From an uncultured bacterium (lineage in GTDB: Bacteria > Cyanobacteriota > Cyanobacteriia > Elainellales > Elainellaceae), in contig CAZVXA010000003.1 in the NCBI GenBank assembly GCA_964630955.1, forward strand, positions 13,664 through 77,663: a DNA stretch of 64,000 nucleotides, given 5' to 3'. The notes beneath the pieces are model-generated. The model worked only from the letters and a program-made list of their open reading frames with translations, was not told the origin of the DNA and searched no databases. Positions 1 to 64,000 of this stretch are shown here, in pieces. How positions within the stretch are numbered: the first letter of the stretch is position 1; every line of letters starts with the position of its first letter. A program made the position numbers and the translations under genes.

Positions 1-439
1 GCGTCCAGATTAGCCAGAATTGAGTGGCAGACCGTTGAATTAGAGTTAACCGCATCAGGGGAGGTTGTTGTAGATCAAATCCTTGCTGGCGATCGCACAG
101 CAACCATGCCTCCAGTTGAGCCAGTTGTTGTTCAGTGGGAATGGCTTGCCAGTCCTGCACCTCCCAGGGTAAGGCAACCTGTCGAAACGCCACCTGAAAG
201 GGCTTATCACGCCGTTCCCAATAAAAAGCAGTCCGGAGGGTGGTGTGCTGGGCGATCACCTCCTGCCATGCCTGTTGTAGGGCTACGATGTCCAGATTAC
301 CCACCAGATCAAAGCACACCTGGGGGATGTAAACGCCTTCCTCTGGCGTAAGTAGGCTGTGAAACAGCATCCCCTGCTGCATCGGCGACAGTGGGTAGAT
401 CGTTTCCACATTTTTGCGTTTGTCTACAGTGTTGCTCAT
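1..439 (-). CDS. NRPS, N-terminal part only (condensation domain, DCL-like start); continues past the left edge
   Basis: This gene is not in the ORF track because it has no stop codon inside the window. Reverse-complement reading from the ATG at about 437-439 gives MSNTVDKRKNVETIYPLSPMQQGMLFHSLLTPEEGVYIPQVCFDLVGNLDIVALQQAWQEVIAQHTTLRTAFYWE... The LSPMQQGMLFH start is the same motif that opens the C domains of the ORFs starting at 23671 and 31578. The start lies 10 nt after the stop of the E-domain-terminated NRPS at 450. Confidence 0.8.
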   Translation of the reverse strand, partial: MSNTVDKRKNVETIYPLSPMQQGMLFHSLLTPEEGVYIPQVCFDLVGNLDIVALQQAWQEVIAQHTTLRTAFYWERRDKPFQVAFRQVALPWEVQDWQAIPTEQQLAQLEAWLLCDRQQGFDLQQPPLMRLTLIQRSATQFWLIWT

Positions 440-449
440 GGTTCTACCC

Positions 450-61009: not shown

Positions 61010-64000
61010 TGCTGTATCCTTTGCCGTGAATTTGCGATTTCTTGAGCCAACAATGCCGCCATGTCTTGAGTCGAAAGCTGATCCAACAAATCACCGGATG
61101 CAGTGGTAGGGTCTGGACTTATGAATGATCGATCCGTTGTCTGGACTTTTGTTGCAGCGATCGCTGGCTCAATCAACGTCGCTAAATGGCTGGCAAGGGC
61201 GGCAATTGTGGGAAAGTTCCAGGCGATCGTGGCATCCAGGTCCTGTTGAATATTCCAGGTATCTTGTAGAGCCTGCGCTAATTCCACCGCCATGATCGAA
61301 TCAATCCCATAGTCAGCAAAGGCGCGATCGGGATTAATGTCTGCAATCGAGATTTTCAGTGTGTGGCTGAGCCATTCCATCATCCAGGTTTGGATTTCTC
61401 GCCGAACCGATCCCCCTAAATCTCCCGTAGCAAGATCACCCTCACCCCTTGTGATCCCCTCTCCCAACATGGGCGAGGGGAAAAGGTTGAGAAACTCCCC
61501 TTCTCCTATTTTGGGAGAAGGGGTTGGGGGATGAGGGAAAGCCGAATAGGGTGCGCTGCTTCGCTGATACCGCAAGGGGGGATCCCGTTGCAACCACTCA
61601 TCCAGCGGAGCATCCATTGCTGCCCAGGTTTGCTCGATCTCACCAATATCTGTTGCATAATTGGCGATTTGTTGAGTTGTAGGTGTAGCAGTGGCATAAA
61701 CTGCTGGGGAAAGTAGTGCTGTTGCGAGGGTTTGTTCAAAGTGTTGCTGTATCCAGCGAAGTGCCATAGCCTGGGGGTTGGGCGACGAACCTAATGCCGC
61801 CCACAAACTAGCAATTGTTGCCAGTTCACCAATGACGTGAGCAGTCCAGCGATGTGCTGTGACCGTGTCTGAGAACGGATGGGGAACAGCCTGGATTTGT
61901 TGCACGGCTTGATGCAAGCGATCTGCTATTTCTGGAGCGGCTAAATCCTGACGCAGCCAGTGATCAAGCTCCGTTGGCTGATGGAGTACCCGTGCCCCTA
62001 AAAAGCCGCAGAGGGTTTCGGTCGGCCCTTCAAAAATTCGCAGTACCCGTGCATCGCGCAAAATTTGGGGAGCCAGATTGGTTTCGATATAGCCCCGTCC
62101 GCCCAGAGTCTGTACCAGCAGGTCGGCGGCTTGCCAGTAAAATTCGGGGGCTGAAATTTTGCAGGCAGCATAGGCTTCCACCGGAATACTCTGGTTGTGA
62201 TCCAGCCTGGTGGTGAGGTGATTGACCAGTGCTTCCACGGCTGAAATGGCACATAGTATCCCATTCAATCGGGTCAGTAAAACTGGGTGTTCGAGTAGCT
62301 TCCCTGTTGCAATGGATCGGCGGGAACTGTACCGCTGTATCAACTGGACACACCGTTTCATCCCGCCTACACTGGCTGCTGCGATCGCCAATCGTCCCAG
62401 CATCATGGCATCCTGAGCGACCATCATGCCAGCCCCGGTGGCACCCAACTGATGGGACGTTGGCACCGGCACCTGGTCAAGATGCACCGTGTTTTGCACC
62501 ATACCGCGCATACCCATCGTCAGTGCTTCTGACCCCTGGCGCAAGCCCGCACTGCCTCGCCGTACAGCAAATGCCCCCATGCCCAGCGATCGCCCCTGTG
62601 CATCCACCTGTTGAGCAAACACATTAATCACCCCTGCCCAGGCAGCGGAACCACTCCAGATTTTAGTGCCATTCAGGTGCCAGCTACCTGCGGCTCCCGG
62701 TATGGCAAGAGTTGCGATCGCTTGAGGGTTTGATCCGGCTTCGGCTTCCGTCAACGCAAAGGCGGCAAGTTCCCGTCCAGTCGCTAGAAGAGGGAGCAAT
62801 TCCTCCTTTAAGGAAGGTTGCCCGTACTGGAGAATGGGACGAATCCCCAACACATTGTTCAGCCCCACGAAGAGTGCCAGCGTAGGGTCGATCGCCCCAA
62901 GCTGCTGCAAAATTCGCATGGTGTCAGCGTAGCTTAATGCCAGTCCACCATACGCCTGGGACACTTGCATTCCCAGCAAGCCGCGATTGCCGAAATCCAG
63001 CACCACGTGGGGCAAAATACAGCGTCGCTCATCCATGAGGCGAGAGTTGAGATGGTGATTGGCATAGTCTCGCAACCAATCAATCATGGCATCGGCTTGA
63101 TTAACGGATTTACCGATAAAATTCTCGGAAGCTTCGTTCCTACAATCCCTGAAAGAGAAGCTTGTTTCTGGACTGGGTTCCTCTTGCGGCAGGGGAGAGG
63201 GAGGGTAATCCTGATTCAATTTAACCTGATTTTGAACTGAATCAGACATAGATTTAAATTGATTAAAAGAACTTTCTTTAGGCAGACTTGAAACTGAATA
63301 AGTCAATGTCCTGGGAGATAAAAAATCATTCTGCAAAATAGACCATTGATATAGTGTGTTGAGGCTATTCTCCTGAAACTTTTGCTGACAGCGATAGCGT
63401 TGAATTTTGCCGCTGGAAGTTTTTGGAATACTGCCCGGTTTCAATAGTTGGATGGCATAAACTTGTAACCCGTATTCCTGGGAAATGGTATGACGGATAG
63501 CGGCAATAATGCTCTCAGTATCCAGCGATCGCCACTGACTCCGATGCACTTCCTGCACGACAGCTAACTGCTCAGTACCCCCAATATCCACACTAAACGC
63601 GGCTCCCGCAAGAGGATTGAGGCTAGGATGGCTGGCAGCAACCGTGTGTTCAATATCCTGGGGATAGTAATTGCGTCCGCGAATAATCAGAACGTCCTTT
63701 ATCCGTCCGGTGATGTAAAGTTCGCCTGCCTGTAAGAAGCCTAAATCTCCCGTTCGCAACCAGCGATCGCTCCGTCCCACCAATTGAGCCTGAAACGTCT
63801 GTGCGGTTGCCTCCGGTTCCTGCCAATACCCCTGGGCAACGCTCTCTCCAGTGACCCAAATTTCTCCAATCTCGTCATTAGCGCAGGGTTGTAACGTTTT
63901 GGGATGGACGATCGCCAGGGTTTGTTCCGCTGCTGTGCCACAACTCACCAGCGAGCGAGCAGGCTGAACCCCAGTTGCAATTTCTACCCGATTCTGCGTC
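61006..64000 (-). CDS. Loading protein: fatty acyl-AMP ligase (FAAL) - acyl-CoA dehydrogenase-like domain - ACP; the 5' end lies beyond the right edge
   Basis: The track ORF starts at an internal GTG (63948). The frame stays open to 64000 (TQNRVEIATGVQPARSL-VSCGTAAEQ...), so the gene is truncated by the window. FAAL C-terminal half: LVSCG, RTGDLGF, KTSSGKIQR. ACAD domain at about 61984-63096: LTEAEAGSNP, WHLNGTKIWSG, GGRGYIE, RIFEGPTE. ACP: ADYGIDSIMAVEL, with the Ser codon at about 61297-61299. ATGA overlap with PKS1. Confidence 0.9.
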   Translation of the reverse strand, partial: TQNRVEIATGVQPARSLVSCGTAAEQTLAIVHPKTLQPCANDEIGEIWVTGESVAQGYWQEPEATAQTFQAQLVGRSDRWLRTGDLGFLQAGELYITGRIKDVLIIRGRNYYPQDIEHTVAASHPSLNPLAGAAFSVDIGGTEQLAVVQEVHRSQWRSLDTESIIAAIRHTISQEYGLQVYAIQLLKPGSIPKTSSGKIQRYRCQQKFQENSLNTLYQWSILQNDFLSPRTLTYSVSSLPKESSFNQFKSMSDSVQNQVKLNQDYPPSPLPQEEPSPETSFSFRDCRNEASENFIGKSVNQADAMIDWLRDYANHHLNSRLMDERRCILPHVVLDFGNRGLLGMQVSQAYGGLALSYADTMRILQQLGAIDPTLALFVGLNNVLGIRPILQYGQPSLKEELLPLLATGRELAAFALTEAEAGSNPQAIATLAIPGAAGSWHLNGTKIWSGSAAWAGVINVFAQQVDAQGRSLGMGAFAVRRGSAGLRQGSEALTMGMRGMVQNTVHLDQVPVPTSHQLGATGAGMMVAQDAMMLGRLAIAAASVGGMKRCVQLIQRYSSRRSIATGKLLEHPVLLTRLNGILCAISAVEALVNHLTTRLDHNQSIPVEAYAACKISAPEFYWQAADLLVQTLGGRGYIETNLAPQILRDARVLRIFEGPTETLCGFLGARVLHQPTELDHWLRQDLAAPEIADRLHQAVQQIQAVPHPFSDTVTAHRWTAHVIGELATIASLWAALGSSPNPQAMALRWIQQHFEQTLATALLSPAVYATATPTTQQIANYATDIGEIEQTWAAMDAPLDEWLQRDPPLRYQRSSAPYSAFPHPPTPSPKIGEGEFLNLFPSPMLGEGITRGEGDLATGDLGGSVRREIQTWMMEWLSHTLKISIADINPDRAFADYGIDSIMAVELAQALQDTWNIQQDLDATIAWNFPTIAALASHLATLIEPAIAATKVQTTDRSFISPDPTTASGDLLDQLSTQDMAALLAQEIANSRQRIQQ
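61409..61531. mobile_element. Related palindromic element inserted in-frame in the linker before the loader ACP
   Basis: It starts with the same terminus, gatccccctaaatc. It contains the hairpins cccctctccc-aacatg-ggcgagggg and ccccttctcc-tattttg-ggagaagggg. It is translated as PHPPTPSPKIGEGEFLNLFPSPMLGEGITRGEGDLATGDLGGS. The boundaries are approximate. Confidence 0.5.

What the first reader, a model, noticed from the sequence alone, without database searches (positions are those of the whole stretch)
1..64000. Large lipopeptide-type hybrid PKS/NRPS line that I could not match to any pathway I know
Seen in sequence: a loader plus 4 PKS and 8 NRPS modules (13 carrier domains) are co-directional, mostly translationally coupled, and open at both window edges. 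No TE domain is visible.

Collinear reading (inference): a fatty acyl starter, possibly 2,3-dehydrogenated, receives two alpha-methylated fully reduced C2 units. A third C2 unit follows, and the PKS3 KR reduces the preceding carbonyl. This would give a 3-hydroxy-4,6-dimethyl acyl chain. The peptide part then reads D-Asn, Ser, D-(Val/Ile-like), Gly, a C2 extension with beta-OH (a 4-amino-3-hydroxybutyrate-type unit), Cys, a Cys-derived thiazole, Gly, D-Cys, and continues.

Each of the three E-terminated proteins is followed by a protein that starts with the LSPMQQGMLFH C-domain type, which supports the order. I cannot match this module order to a characterised cyanobacterial pathway from memory. 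That is not evidence of novelty.
Basis: partly seen in the sequence, partly recalled or inferred. Interest (0 to 1): 0.7.

Follow-up and report, generated by a model that had tools for sequence, protein, structure and literature searches.

The report
Cyanobacterial fabrubactin-type lipo-siderophore assembly line
The window holds most of a real 65-kb polyketide/peptide assembly line that is an enlarged cyanobacterial relative of the Agrobacterium fabrubactin siderophore pathway and of the still-unsolved "second siderophore" cluster of Anabaena PCC 7120, so it is a new variant of a known kind.

Summary
On the minus strand there is a FAAL-ACAD-ACP loader, 4 PKS modules and 8 NRPS modules (13 carrier domains). 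No TE is present and the line is open at both window edges.

The interpretation needs three corrections.
1. The two "Cys / D-Cys" modules carry the code DLFNNALTYK. That is an Ala code, and it matches FbnO/FbnP of fabrubactin. The peptide therefore reads D-Asn, Ser, D-Val, Gly, [C2], Ala, thiazole, Gly, D-Ala.
2. The AT of PKS module 1 is vestigial. The same lesion is kept in the closest relatives.
3. The line does match known biology:
- g3, LLM, g6, g7, g8, g9 and g10 correspond gene for gene to FbnF, E, D, N, O, P and Q of an Agrobacterium fabrubactin-type cluster.
- The whole line is colinear with an uncharacterised cluster on the Gloeocapsa PCC 7428 plasmid.
- Relatives occur in Nostoc PCC 7120, Nodularia and Trichormus. 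Those relatives end in a DOPA module with a reductase, aminotransferase, methyltransferase and FbnL/M-type genes (Dmaq chelator), and lie beside TonB receptors.

Most likely product: an acylated siderophore. No member of the cyanobacterial clade has a solved structure. Verdict: new variant of a known kind, moderate interest.

The parts
61006..64000 (-). g0 loader: FAAL (N-terminal 345 aa lie outside the window)-acyl-CoA-dehydrogenase-like domain-ACP
   Evidence: Pfam finds Acyl-CoA_dh_N/M/1, PP-binding and an AMP domain. The full 1342-aa protein is in L002:729-4757 and gives FAAL-type NCBIfam hits. More than 100 cyanobacterial homologues have the same three domains.
53534..61009 (-). g1 PKS module 1: KS-AT(vestigial)-DH-cMT-ER-KR-ACP
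   Evidence: Pfam. The AT reads GEGVG instead of GHSxG, and about 70 aa including HAFH are deleted. The same lesion is present in the two closest relatives, while the AT is intact in Nodularia, Anabaena and Gloeocapsa. The AT remnant is the least conserved part: 52% identity against 87% for KS and 89% for ACP.
45999..53531 (-). g2 PKS module 2: KS-AT(malonyl type, GHSLG/HAFH)-DH-cMT-ER-KR-ACP
41262..45962 (-). g3 PKS module 3: KS-AT-KR-ACP, FbnF-like
   Evidence: Pfam. It is 41% identical over its full length to the Agrobacterium PKS next to the FAAL and LLM genes, 51% to Gloeocapsa PKS3 and 54% to Nostoc PCC 7120 P0322. The deviant KR nucleotide-binding motif is shared across the family.
40143..41186 (+). 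FbnE-type FMN-dependent luciferase-like monooxygenase (tailoring enzyme)
   Evidence: NCBIfam TIGR04020 (MupA/Atu3671 family) scores 507 bits against a cut-off of 244. It is 70% identical to the LLM at the same PKS3/NRPS junction in Gloeocapsa. It is 59% identical to the LLM between the PKS and the Gly-NRPS of the Agrobacterium fbn-type cluster.
36657..39975 (.). Inserted DNA that splits the LLM/g4 intergenic region. It carries an ABC_membrane_2 fragment (36667-37029), a glyoxalase-like ORF (37050-37796) and a DUF3102 ORF (38564-39817). It is probably not part of the pathway.
   Evidence: It is flanked by about 165-nt direct repeats, 36494-36656 and 39976-40102, at 82-88% identity. The Gloeocapsa and Agrobacterium clusters have no counterpart.
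31640..36589 (-). g4 NRPS: C-A(Asn, DATKIGEVGK)-T-E. The true start is probably the ATG near 36487.
   Evidence: It is 47% identical to Gloeocapsa N1, which has the same architecture and an Asn code.
23668..31578 (-). g5 NRPS: DCL-A(Ser, DVWHVSLIDK)-T-LCL-A(Val-like, DAWWIGGTFK)-T-E
   Evidence: It is 46% identical to Gloeocapsa N2.
20309..23671 (-). g6 NRPS: DCL-A(Gly, DILQLGLIWK)-T. It has the role of FbnD (a Gly module that feeds the second PKS).
   Evidence: The Agrobacterium FbnD-position NRPS has the code DILQLGVIWK. Gloeocapsa has no orthologue.
15762..20312 (-). g7 PKS module 4: KS-AT-KR-ACP, FbnN-like
   Evidence: It is 42% identical to the Agrobacterium PKS upstream of the FbnO-like gene and 51% to Gloeocapsa PKS4.
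8426..15784 (-). g8 NRPS: LCL-A(Ala, DLFNNALTYK)-T-Cy-A(Cys, DLYNLSLIWK, with inserted nitroreductase-type Ox)-T. It makes Ala-thiazole and is FbnO-like.
   Evidence: It is 44% identical over its full length to the Agrobacterium FbnO-position NRPS, which has the same codes. It is 53% identical to its Gloeocapsa counterpart.
450..8423 (-). g9 NRPS: LCL-A(Gly, DILQLGLVWK)-T-LCL-A(Ala, DLFNNALTYK)-T-E. It makes Gly-D-Ala and is FbnP-like.
   Evidence: It is 51% identical to a Nodularia protein of the same length, 2657 aa. It is 39% identical to the Agrobacterium FbnP-position NRPS, whose codes are DILQLGLIWK and DLFNCALTYK.
1..448 (-). g10: start of the next NRPS (a DCL condensation domain). In L001 it continues for 479 aa into the start of an A domain.
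   Evidence: It is 56-59% identical to the C-A(Ser)-T genes of Nodularia and Trichormus.

Best explanation
The window contains most of one hybrid PKS/NRPS assembly line for an acylated peptide-polyketide siderophore of the fabrubactin/anachelin family.

Proposed route. The domain content is shown; the chemistry is inferred.
1. The FAAL activates a fatty acid onto the loader ACP. The fused ACAD-like domain may desaturate it.
2. Modules 1 and 2 add two C-methylated, reduced C2 units. Module 1 has no working AT of its own, so its ACP is presumably loaded in trans, most simply by the AT of module 2.
3. Module 3 (FbnF-like) adds a further C2 unit.
4. NRPS modules add D-Asn, Ser, D-Val and Gly.
5. 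Module 4 (FbnN-like) extends the Gly.
6. g8 and g9 add Ala, a Cys-derived thiazole, Gly and D-Ala.
7. The FbnE-type flavin monooxygenase encoded between g3 and g4 probably reworks the two KS-AT-KR-ACP-derived units into alpha-hydroxycarboxylate iron ligands, as proposed for fabrubactin. If so, plain beta-hydroxy groups are not left at these positions.
8. The line continues beyond the window. By analogy with its relatives it probably ends with Ser, a DOPA module, reductive release, transamination and N-methylation to give a Dmaq catechol chelator.
For: Correspondence to an Agrobacterium fbn-type cluster, gene by gene, with the same A-domain codes:
- FAAL 38%
- g3/FbnF 41%
- LLM/FbnE 59%
- g6/FbnD: both have Gly codes
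- g7/FbnN 42%
- g8/FbnO 44%
- g9/FbnP 39%
- g10/FbnQ C domain 36-43%

Literature on fabrubactin:
- The fabrubactin peptide part is Ala-(Ox)Cys-Gly-Ala-Gly-OH-Tyr. The code table lists DLFNNALTYK as Ala and DAPTLGAVNK as FbnH/OH-Tyr (PMC12283262 supplement).
- FbnL/M make DOPA, and FbnE is proposed to make two alpha-hydroxycarboxylates (PMC12971057).
- FbnG is a FAAL (PMC11837247).

Cyanobacterial relatives:
- A colinear cluster on Gloeocapsa PCC 7428 pGLO7428.01 is 46-70% identical per gene. It is flanked by TonB siderophore receptors, an MFS transporter, MbtH genes and an AraC regulator.
- Nodularia, Trichormus and Nostoc PCC 7120 relatives end with a DAPTLGAVNK module, CmlA-R, MT, an aminotransferase and an FbnM-like peroxidase. 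They lie next to AMIN-TonB receptors, a ferric reductase and a periplasmic binding protein.
- The PCC 7120 cluster is FurA-regulated and is reported to account for most siderophore activity. Its structure is unknown (PMC4005646; PMC6562677; PMC4247773; 2026 preprint).

Single-line reading: g3 ends in an ACP with no release domain, and g4 starts with a C domain.
Against: - The window itself holds no transporter, no Fur-box evidence and no Dmaq genes. tblastn with FbnL/M-like, AmT, MT, CmlA-R, tyrosinase, MbtH and TonB queries found nothing in the window or in its short extensions. The C-terminal chemistry rests wholly on relatives.
- Identities to the characterised fbn system are only 36-59%.
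- The FbnE rearrangement is a published proposal known to me only through a secondary source. The primary paper was not held.
- The KRs of g3 and g7 retain their catalytic K/S/Y/N residues, so plain beta-hydroxy units remain possible.
- In the two closest relatives of the PKS half (66-70% identity) no NRPS genes follow PKS3. The metagenome scan found no close g8 homologue.
- The PCC 7120 NRPS genes between the tail and the loader could not be read, so module-level collinearity with that cluster is untested.
Confidence: 0.75

Rival explanations
1. It is a cytotoxic or antibiotic lipopeptide line unrelated to metal uptake, read strictly collinearly: a 3-hydroxy-4,6-dimethylacyl chain, a GABOB-type unit and free Cys/D-Cys thiols.
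For: The window has no transport or iron-regulation genes. The KR catalytic residues of g3 and g7 are present. FAAL-PKS-NRPS lipopeptides are common in cyanobacteria.
Against: DLFNNALTYK is an Ala code, and it is shared with FbnO/FbnP orthologues whose product contains Ala. The line shows gene-for-gene homology to a proven siderophore pathway. Every relative that could be read is associated with TonB or ferric-reductase genes.
Confidence: 0.1
2. There are two independent clusters that merely lie side by side: a loader plus three PKS modules making a fatty-acid-like product, and a separate NRPS/PKS line that starts at g4.
For: A 4.7-kb break with inserted DNA separates g3 from g4. In Nodularia the two halves are about 30 kb apart. 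In the closest PKS-half relatives no NRPS follows.
Against: g3 has no release domain, and g4 starts with a C domain that needs an upstream acyl donor. In Gloeocapsa, PKS3-LLM-NRPS1 are contiguous and co-directional. Agrobacterium has FAAL-PKS-LLM-NRPS contiguous, for what is reported as one product. Without the repeat-flanked insert, LLM and g4 share a single intergenic region.
Confidence: 0.05
3. The locus is decaying. The vestigial AT, the inverted LLM and the foreign insert mean the line no longer makes a full-length product.
For: The AT1 active site is lost. There is a 3.45-kb insertion with an ABC-transporter fragment.
Against: About 60 kb of megasynthase ORFs have no internal stops. The AT1 lesion is shared with relatives at 66-70% identity, while KS1 and ACP1 remain 87-89% identical. 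This points to purifying selection on an AT-less but working module. An inactive first-PKS AT is also reported for the anachelin cluster (PMC4247773).
Confidence: 0.07

Closest known systems
Fabrubactin A/B cluster (fbn) of Agrobacterium fabrum C58 (Vinnik et al. 2021). It was read here from the homologous cluster on A. tumefaciens pAt15955 (L178/L179).
   Same: - FAAL start.
- A KS-AT-KR-ACP module followed by an FbnE-type LLM.
- A Gly module feeding a second KS-AT-KR-ACP.
- C-A(Ala)-T-Cy-A(Cys)-Ox-T, then C-A(Gly)-T-C-A(Ala)-T-E, then a DCL domain.
- Identical or one-residue-different A codes.
- The same deviant KR motif.
   Different: - The window adds an ACAD domain in the loader.
- It adds two fully reducing C-methylating PKS modules, the first without a working AT.
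- It adds three extra NRPS modules (D-Asn, Ser, D-Val) between the first PKS/LLM and the Gly module.
- Identities are only 36-59%.
- The Dmaq genes, TE and transport genes of fbn are not visible in the window.
Anabaena/Nostoc sp. PCC 7120 siderophore cluster (all2635, all2641-all2649 and neighbours; Jeanjean et al. 2008) and its orthologues in Nodularia and Trichormus
   Same: - Loader, PKS1/2 and PKS3 orthologues at 52-56% identity.
- g9 orthologue at 51% identity, with the same length and codes.
- g10 orthologue at 56-59% identity.
- The PCC 7120 cluster is iron/FurA-regulated and linked to siderophore production. Its product structure is still unknown.
   Different: - The gene order is rearranged. 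In Nodularia the PKS half lies about 30 kb from the NRPS half. In PCC 7120 the KS-AT-KR-ACP gene sits after the tail genes.
- AT1 is intact in Nodularia and Anabaena.
- The middle NRPS genes of these genomes could not be read here.
Uncharacterised cluster on Gloeocapsa sp. PCC 7428 plasmid pGLO7428.01 (NC_019746.1)
   Same: It has the same order throughout: loader, PKS1, PKS2, PKS3, LLM, C-A(Asn)-T-E, C-A-T-C-A(Val)-T-E, KS-AT-KR-ACP, Ala-thiazole NRPS, Gly-D-Ala NRPS. Identity per gene is 46-70%.
   Different: - It has no g6 (Gly) module.
- Position 2 has the code DVEDIGAISK instead of Ser.
- AT1 is intact.
- The LLM is co-directional.
- g9 and g10 are fused.
- The full tail is visible: Ser, DOPA, CmlA-R, MT, AmT, MbtH, FbnL/M-like genes and a tyrosinase.
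[quoted passage not shown]
   Same: It is a hybrid NRPS/PKS siderophore line with a C-terminal Tyr/DOPA-derived Dmaq made by reductase, MT and aminotransferase genes. An inactive AT is reported in its first PKS (PMC4247773; PMC6562677).
   Different: It has a salicylate starter, no FAAL, and a different peptide (Thr-D-Ser-Ser). It was not compared by sequence here.
Cyanochelins A-C (cyanobacterial FAAL-PKS/NRPS lipopeptide siderophores)
   Same: The general logic is shared: FAAL, a heterocycle, reductive release and AMIN-type TonB receptors.
   Different: Their chelators are beta-OH-Asp residues. There are no Asp modules or Asp hydroxylases here. The only metagenome hit of that type (L096) differs in architecture.

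Membership tests
Fabrubactin/anachelin (Dmaq) NRPS-PKS siderophore family | FbnE-type FMN-dependent LLM next to the first KS-AT-KR-ACP module | tested here: met
   TIGR04020 scores 507 bits against a cut-off of 244. 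The LLM is 59% identical to the Agrobacterium LLM in the FbnE position and 70% to the Gloeocapsa LLM.
Fabrubactin/anachelin (Dmaq) NRPS-PKS siderophore family | FbnO/FbnP-type NRPS pair that makes Ala-thiazole-Gly-D-Ala | tested here: met
   g8 is 44% and g9 39% identical over their full lengths. The codes are DLFNNALTYK / DLYNLSLIWK+Ox / DILQLGLVWK / DLFNNALTYK here and DLFNNALTYK / DLYNMSLIWK / DILQLGLIWK / DLFNCALTYK in Agrobacterium.
Fabrubactin/anachelin (Dmaq) NRPS-PKS siderophore family | FAAL starter, and a Gly module feeding a second KS-AT-KR-ACP (FbnG, FbnD to FbnN) | tested here: met
Fabrubactin/anachelin (Dmaq) NRPS-PKS siderophore family | FbnL + FbnM heme-peroxidase pair (the antiSMASH Dmaq marker) | tested here: inconclusive
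   There are no hits in the window or its 1.0-kb and 1.8-kb extensions, but the line runs off the window. Homologues are present in the PCC 7120 and Gloeocapsa relatives.
Fabrubactin/anachelin (Dmaq) NRPS-PKS siderophore family | Terminal DOPA module (DAPTLGAVNK) with thioester reductase, aminotransferase and methyltransferase | tested here: inconclusive
   This lies outside the window. It is present in Nodularia, Trichormus, PCC 7120 and Gloeocapsa.
Fabrubactin/anachelin (Dmaq) NRPS-PKS siderophore family | Adjacent siderophore uptake or export genes | tested here: not met
   The 64-kb window has none, only an ABC_membrane_2 fragment. They are present beside all relatives that could be read.
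Anabaena PCC 7120 all2635/all2641-2649-type cluster clade | Orthologous loader, PKS and tail genes | tested here: met
   Loader 54-55% (P0150), g3 54% (P0320, P0322). The tail genes were read in L093. all2635 is annotated as a type I PKS.
Anabaena PCC 7120 all2635/all2641-2649-type cluster clade | The same NRPS module order across all2641-all2649 | not testable with these tools
   The PCC 7120 chromosome could only be read around proteins returned by searches.
Anabaena PCC 7120 all2635/all2641-2649-type cluster clade | FurA boxes or iron-starvation induction | not tested
   Known only from the literature for PCC 7120.
Cyanochelin family | Beta-hydroxy-Asp modules with dedicated Asp hydroxylases | tested here: not met
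   There are no Asp codes. The only oxygenases are a P4H-type 2OG enzyme upstream and the LLM.
Free-thiol (Cys / D-Cys) lipopeptide, as read by the first stage | Cys-specific A domains in g8 module 1 and g9 module 2 | tested here: not met
   The code DLFNNALTYK is listed as Ala (18 domains). Near-identical codes in FbnO/FbnP are also Ala.

The most novel reading that the evidence does not exclude
This lineage makes a still-undescribed class of amphiphilic cyanobacterial siderophore, the type behind the unsolved 'second siderophore' of Anabaena PCC 7120. The predicted product combines:
- a branched, possibly unsaturated, fatty-polyketide tail;
- two FbnE-made alpha-hydroxycarboxylates;
- a D-Asn-Ser-D-Val-Gly spacer;
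- Ala-thiazole-Gly-D-Ala;
- a Dmaq catechol encoded outside the window.

In this sublineage the first extender module has also lost its own acyltransferase yet keeps working by trans-loading.
Probability: 0.45. Interest if true: 0.5.

Novelty: new variant of a known kind. Interest (0 to 1): 0.38.

Why it matters
The structure of the NRPS/PKS siderophore of Anabaena PCC 7120 has been open since 2008. A review in 2019 and a preprint in 2026 still call it uncharacterised.

Linking this clade gene by gene to fabrubactin gives a concrete structural prediction: Ala-thiazole-Gly-D-Ala, alpha-hydroxycarboxylates and Dmaq. That prediction can be tested directly by LC-MS/MS of iron-starved cultures.

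The window also shows which parts of the family vary (lipid tail length and branching, spacer residues, an extra Gly module). It offers a natural case of a cis-AT module that has lost its AT but is kept under selection.

Tried and rejected
- GTDB genome scan with the 479-aa g10 fragment. The source genome is not among the species representatives. The best hits were 56-59% (Nodularia, Trichormus), and these proved syntenic.
- Protein search with the partial g10. It listed only hits up to about 1.75 times the query length, so no full-length downstream protein was found and the line could not be walked further.
- The exact proteins sit on an 82,029-bp NCBI contig. That contig could not be fetched. 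Only Logan contigs were available, adding 1.0 kb downstream and 1.8 kb upstream.
- Metagenome scan with g8. The best hit, at 52%, was a cyanochelin-C-like FAAL-NRPS cluster of different architecture, so it was rejected as a relative.
- Fatuamide, leptochelin/lusichelin and the cyanochelins were considered. They were rejected because of their salicylate starters or beta-OH-Asp chemistry.
- My own first assignment of DLFNNALTYK as Cys, from memory, was wrong and was overturned by the published code table.
- Text searches for the codes found nothing.
- The primary fabrubactin paper and the cyanochelin A paper are not held.
- Rfam and tRNA scans of the window were empty.

Full report
**Observation**

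All large ORFs lie on the minus strand, so biosynthesis runs from coordinate 64000 down to 1. Pfam scans, motif scans and alignments of the KS, AT, C and A domains give this layout:
- g0: FAAL-ACAD-ACP. It is cut by the window edge. The full protein is 1342 aa in a Logan contig and is preceded by a 2OG-Fe(II) oxygenase.
- g1: KS-AT*-DH-cMT-ER-KR-ACP.
- g2: KS-AT-DH-cMT-ER-KR-ACP.
- g3: KS-AT-KR-ACP.
- g4: C-A-T-E.
- g5: DCL-A-T-LCL-A-T-E.
- g6: DCL-A-T.
- g7: KS-AT-KR-ACP.
- g8: LCL-A-T-Cy-A(Ox)-T.
- g9: LCL-A-T-LCL-A-T-E.
- g10: the first 149 aa of a DCL domain.

Each E domain is followed by a C domain that starts with LSPMQQGMLFH.

**Corrections at domain level**

1. Stachelhaus codes were read by hand and again by alignment columns:

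| Module | Code | Assignment |
|---|---|---|
| g4 | DATKIGEVGK | Asn |
| g5, first A domain | DVWHVSLIDK | Ser |
| g5, second A domain | DAWWIGGTFK | Val-like |
| g6 | DILQLGLIWK | Gly |
| g8, first A domain | DLFNNALTYK | Ala |
| g8, second A domain | DLYNLSLIWK, with Ox insert | Cys (thiazole) |
| g9, first A domain | DILQLGLVWK | Gly |
| g9, second A domain | DLFNNALTYK | Ala |

The code table in the supplement of PMC12283262 lists DLFNNALTYK as Ala (18 domains). It lists DLFNCALTYK as Ala in FbnP and DLFNNALVYK as Ala in FbnO. The thiazole Cys stands.

2. The AT of module 1 is vestigial. GQGSQ and GHSxG are lost (the latter now reads GEGVG), and about 70 residues including HAFH are deleted.
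   - The two closest relatives (metagenome contigs at 66-70% identity) carry the same lesion. Nodularia, Anabaena and Gloeocapsa have an intact AT1.
   - Between the window and its closest relative the AT remnant is the least conserved segment: 52% identity with many gaps. KS1 is 87% and ACP1 89% identical.
   - This pattern fits an AT-less module that is still in use.

3. The line has a 4.7-kb break between g3 and g4.
   - The break holds a plus-strand luciferase-like monooxygenase of the MupA/Atu3671 family: TIGR04020, 507 bits against a cut-off of 244.
   - It also holds about 3.45 kb flanked by approximately 165-nt direct repeats. That stretch carries a DUF3102 ORF, a glyoxalase-like ORF and an ABC-transporter fragment.

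**Relatives**

- The exact proteins occur only in Logan assemblies of two SRA runs and on an 82-kb NCBI contig that I could not fetch.
- The FAAL-ACAD-ACP loader is common in cyanobacteria: more than 100 homologues at 47-66% identity.
- The g10 fragment led to syntenic loci in Nodularia chucula and Trichormus:
  - They contain a 2657-aa g9 orthologue at 51% identity with the same Gly and Ala codes.
  - Downstream come C-A(Ser)-T, C-A(DAPTLGAVNK)-T, a CmlA-like hydroxylase fused to a thioester reductase, and a methyltransferase.
- The g3 search led to Nostoc PCC 7120:
  - The same tail is followed by an aminotransferase, a small ORF, an SfmD-type peroxidase and the g3 orthologue.
  - A ferric reductase, a periplasmic binding protein and an AMIN-TonB receptor lie nearby.
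- In Nodularia and Anabaena the loader-PKS half lies beside MFS, TonB, HlyD and ABC-C39 genes.
- The Gloeocapsa PCC 7428 plasmid carries a contiguous, colinear cluster at 46-70% identity per gene:
  - It has the LLM between PKS3 and the Asn NRPS, and the full tail.
  - TonB siderophore receptors lie on both sides.
  - It lacks g6, and position 2 has a different code.

**Link to a characterised pathway**

The g8 query also hit Agrobacterium plasmids at 44% identity over the full length. The annotated region has this order:
- FAAL, PKS, LLM, Gly-NRPS and MATE on one side.
- C-A-T-R, MT, aminotransferase, MbtH, two "siderophore biosynthesis proteins", PKS, NRPS, NRPS, C-T, TE, ferric reductase, TonB and ABC genes on the other side.

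This order corresponds to FbnG, F, E, D and FbnH-R of the fabrubactin cluster. I assigned the letters by synteny and by the accession series given.

Best matches run one to one with the window genes, and the A codes match. The published record says:
- The fabrubactin peptide part is Ala-(Ox)Cys-Gly-Ala-Gly-OH-Tyr, and FbnH has the code DAPTLGAVNK. The last module of the four cyanobacterial relatives has the same code.
- FbnL/M oxidise Tyr to DOPA for the Dmaq chelator. FbnE is proposed to form two alpha-hydroxycarboxylate ligands.
- FbnG is a FAAL.

For the cyanobacterial clade:
- The PCC 7120 cluster (seven NRPS and two PKS genes) is FurA-controlled. Deletion removes most siderophore activity. 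An orthologue exists in Nodularia. The structure is unknown.
- A 2026 preprint still calls it uncharacterised.

**Mechanism**

Shown:
- The domain order, the A-domain codes and the homologies.

Inferred:
- The fatty acid is adenylated and loaded, and is possibly 2,3-desaturated by the ACAD-like domain.
- Two methyl-branched reduced extensions follow. ACP1 is loaded in trans.
- A third extension is made by the FbnF-like module.
- D-Asn, Ser, D-Val and Gly are added.
- The FbnN-like module extends the Gly.
- Ala-thiazole and Gly-D-Ala are added.
- The LLM probably remodels the two units made by g3 and g7.

The KR domains of g3 and g7 share a deviant nucleotide-binding motif with their Gloeocapsa and Agrobacterium counterparts but keep the catalytic residues. 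Reduction versus rearrangement therefore remains open. The end of the line (Ser, DOPA, reductive release, Dmaq) is inferred only from relatives.

**Novelty**

The kind is known:
- Vinnik et al. predicted that fabrubactin/anachelin-like clusters are widespread in cyanobacteria. I state this from memory of their abstract; cites their use of FbnL/M as genome-mining handles.
- The PCC 7120 cluster has been studied genetically.

The window is a variant of that kind. It has a contiguous PKS-to-NRPS order, an extra Gly module relative to Gloeocapsa, Ser at position 2, a conserved vestigial AT1 and an inverted LLM with a repeat-flanked insertion. No compound from this clade has been described, so the product is very probably new chemistry within a known family.

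Noticed in passing
window 58640-59330 (g1 residues about 561-790): The acyltransferase of PKS module 1 is a remnant: GEGVG replaces GHSxG and the HAFH segment is deleted. The two closest relatives share the lesion, but Nodularia, Anabaena and Gloeocapsa do not. It is the least conserved part of an otherwise well conserved module.
   Followed up: yes
window 36494-36656 and 39976-40102: Direct repeats of about 165 nt (82-88% identity) bracket a 3.45-kb insert between g4 and the LLM gene. Each copy lies just upstream of one of the two divergent genes. Each contains an A/T-rich stretch (ATAAAAACCATTTTGATTT / ATACAATCCTATTTGATTT) that could be a regulatory site such as a Fur box.
   Followed up: partly
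window 38564-39817 (+), 37050-37796 (-), 36667-37029 (-): The insert carries a DUF3102 ORF with weak PHROG hits (plasmid/phage-type), a glyoxalase-like ORF and a 120-aa ABC_membrane_2 fragment. None has a counterpart in the homologous clusters.
   Followed up: partly
window 38201-38249 and 38564-38610: Two perfect hairpin palindromes lie inside the insert. One has 23-nt arms with a 3-nt loop and the other has 21-nt arms with a 5-nt loop. The second sits at the start of the DUF3102 ORF.
   Followed up: no
g1 residues about 2210-2225 and g2 about 2259-2274 (KR domains): The KR motif reads GSPGQANHVAAN, with His where I expected the canonical catalytic Tyr. The same motif, or GQGNHVAAN in one protein, occurs in all nine PKS1/PKS2 proteins compared from the window, metagenomes, Nodularia, Anabaena and Gloeocapsa.
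   Followed up: partly
g3 residues about 1173-1195, g7 about 1145-1165: The KR nucleotide-binding motif is GD(L/V)xxGLG with a one-residue insertion, instead of GGxGxLG. This deviation is conserved from Agrobacterium FbnF/FbnN-like proteins to the cyanobacterial ones.
   Followed up: partly
g8 C1, g9 C1, g9 C2 (window about 15100-15300, 7800-8000, 4650-4800): Three LCL condensation domains read HHIISDR, HHIIADY and HHIVADA, so the Gly of HHxxxDG is replaced. The Gloeocapsa and Agrobacterium counterparts retain HHxxxD. The residue after it was not examined in them.
   Followed up: partly
A domains of g4, g5, g6, g8 and g9 (between motifs A6 and A7): Variable inserts rich in Pro, Ser and Gly occur at the same position in several A domains. 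They share a recurring (L)LPTP(HS) motif, for example PLPTPHS in g5b, g6 and g8a.
   Followed up: no
L002:95-694 (just upstream of the window end): A P4H-type 2OG-Fe(II) oxygenase precedes the loader. It is conserved in the closest relatives and is present at 40% identity in the Gloeocapsa cluster. Its substrate is unknown.
   Followed up: partly
L005:16758-19808, L004:12583-15675, L093:3348-6407: In the cyanobacterial relatives the releasing thioester reductase is fused to a CmlA-type diiron beta-hydroxylase through a TubC-type docking segment. In Agrobacterium the reductase is the last domain of the DOPA NRPS.
   Followed up: partly
L090:15106-19399: In the closest relatives of the PKS half, PKS3 is followed directly by a TonB receptor, a ferredoxin and an FAD oxidoreductase, and then by housekeeping genes. 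No NRPS genes follow. Their NRPS partner, if one exists, was not found.
   Followed up: partly
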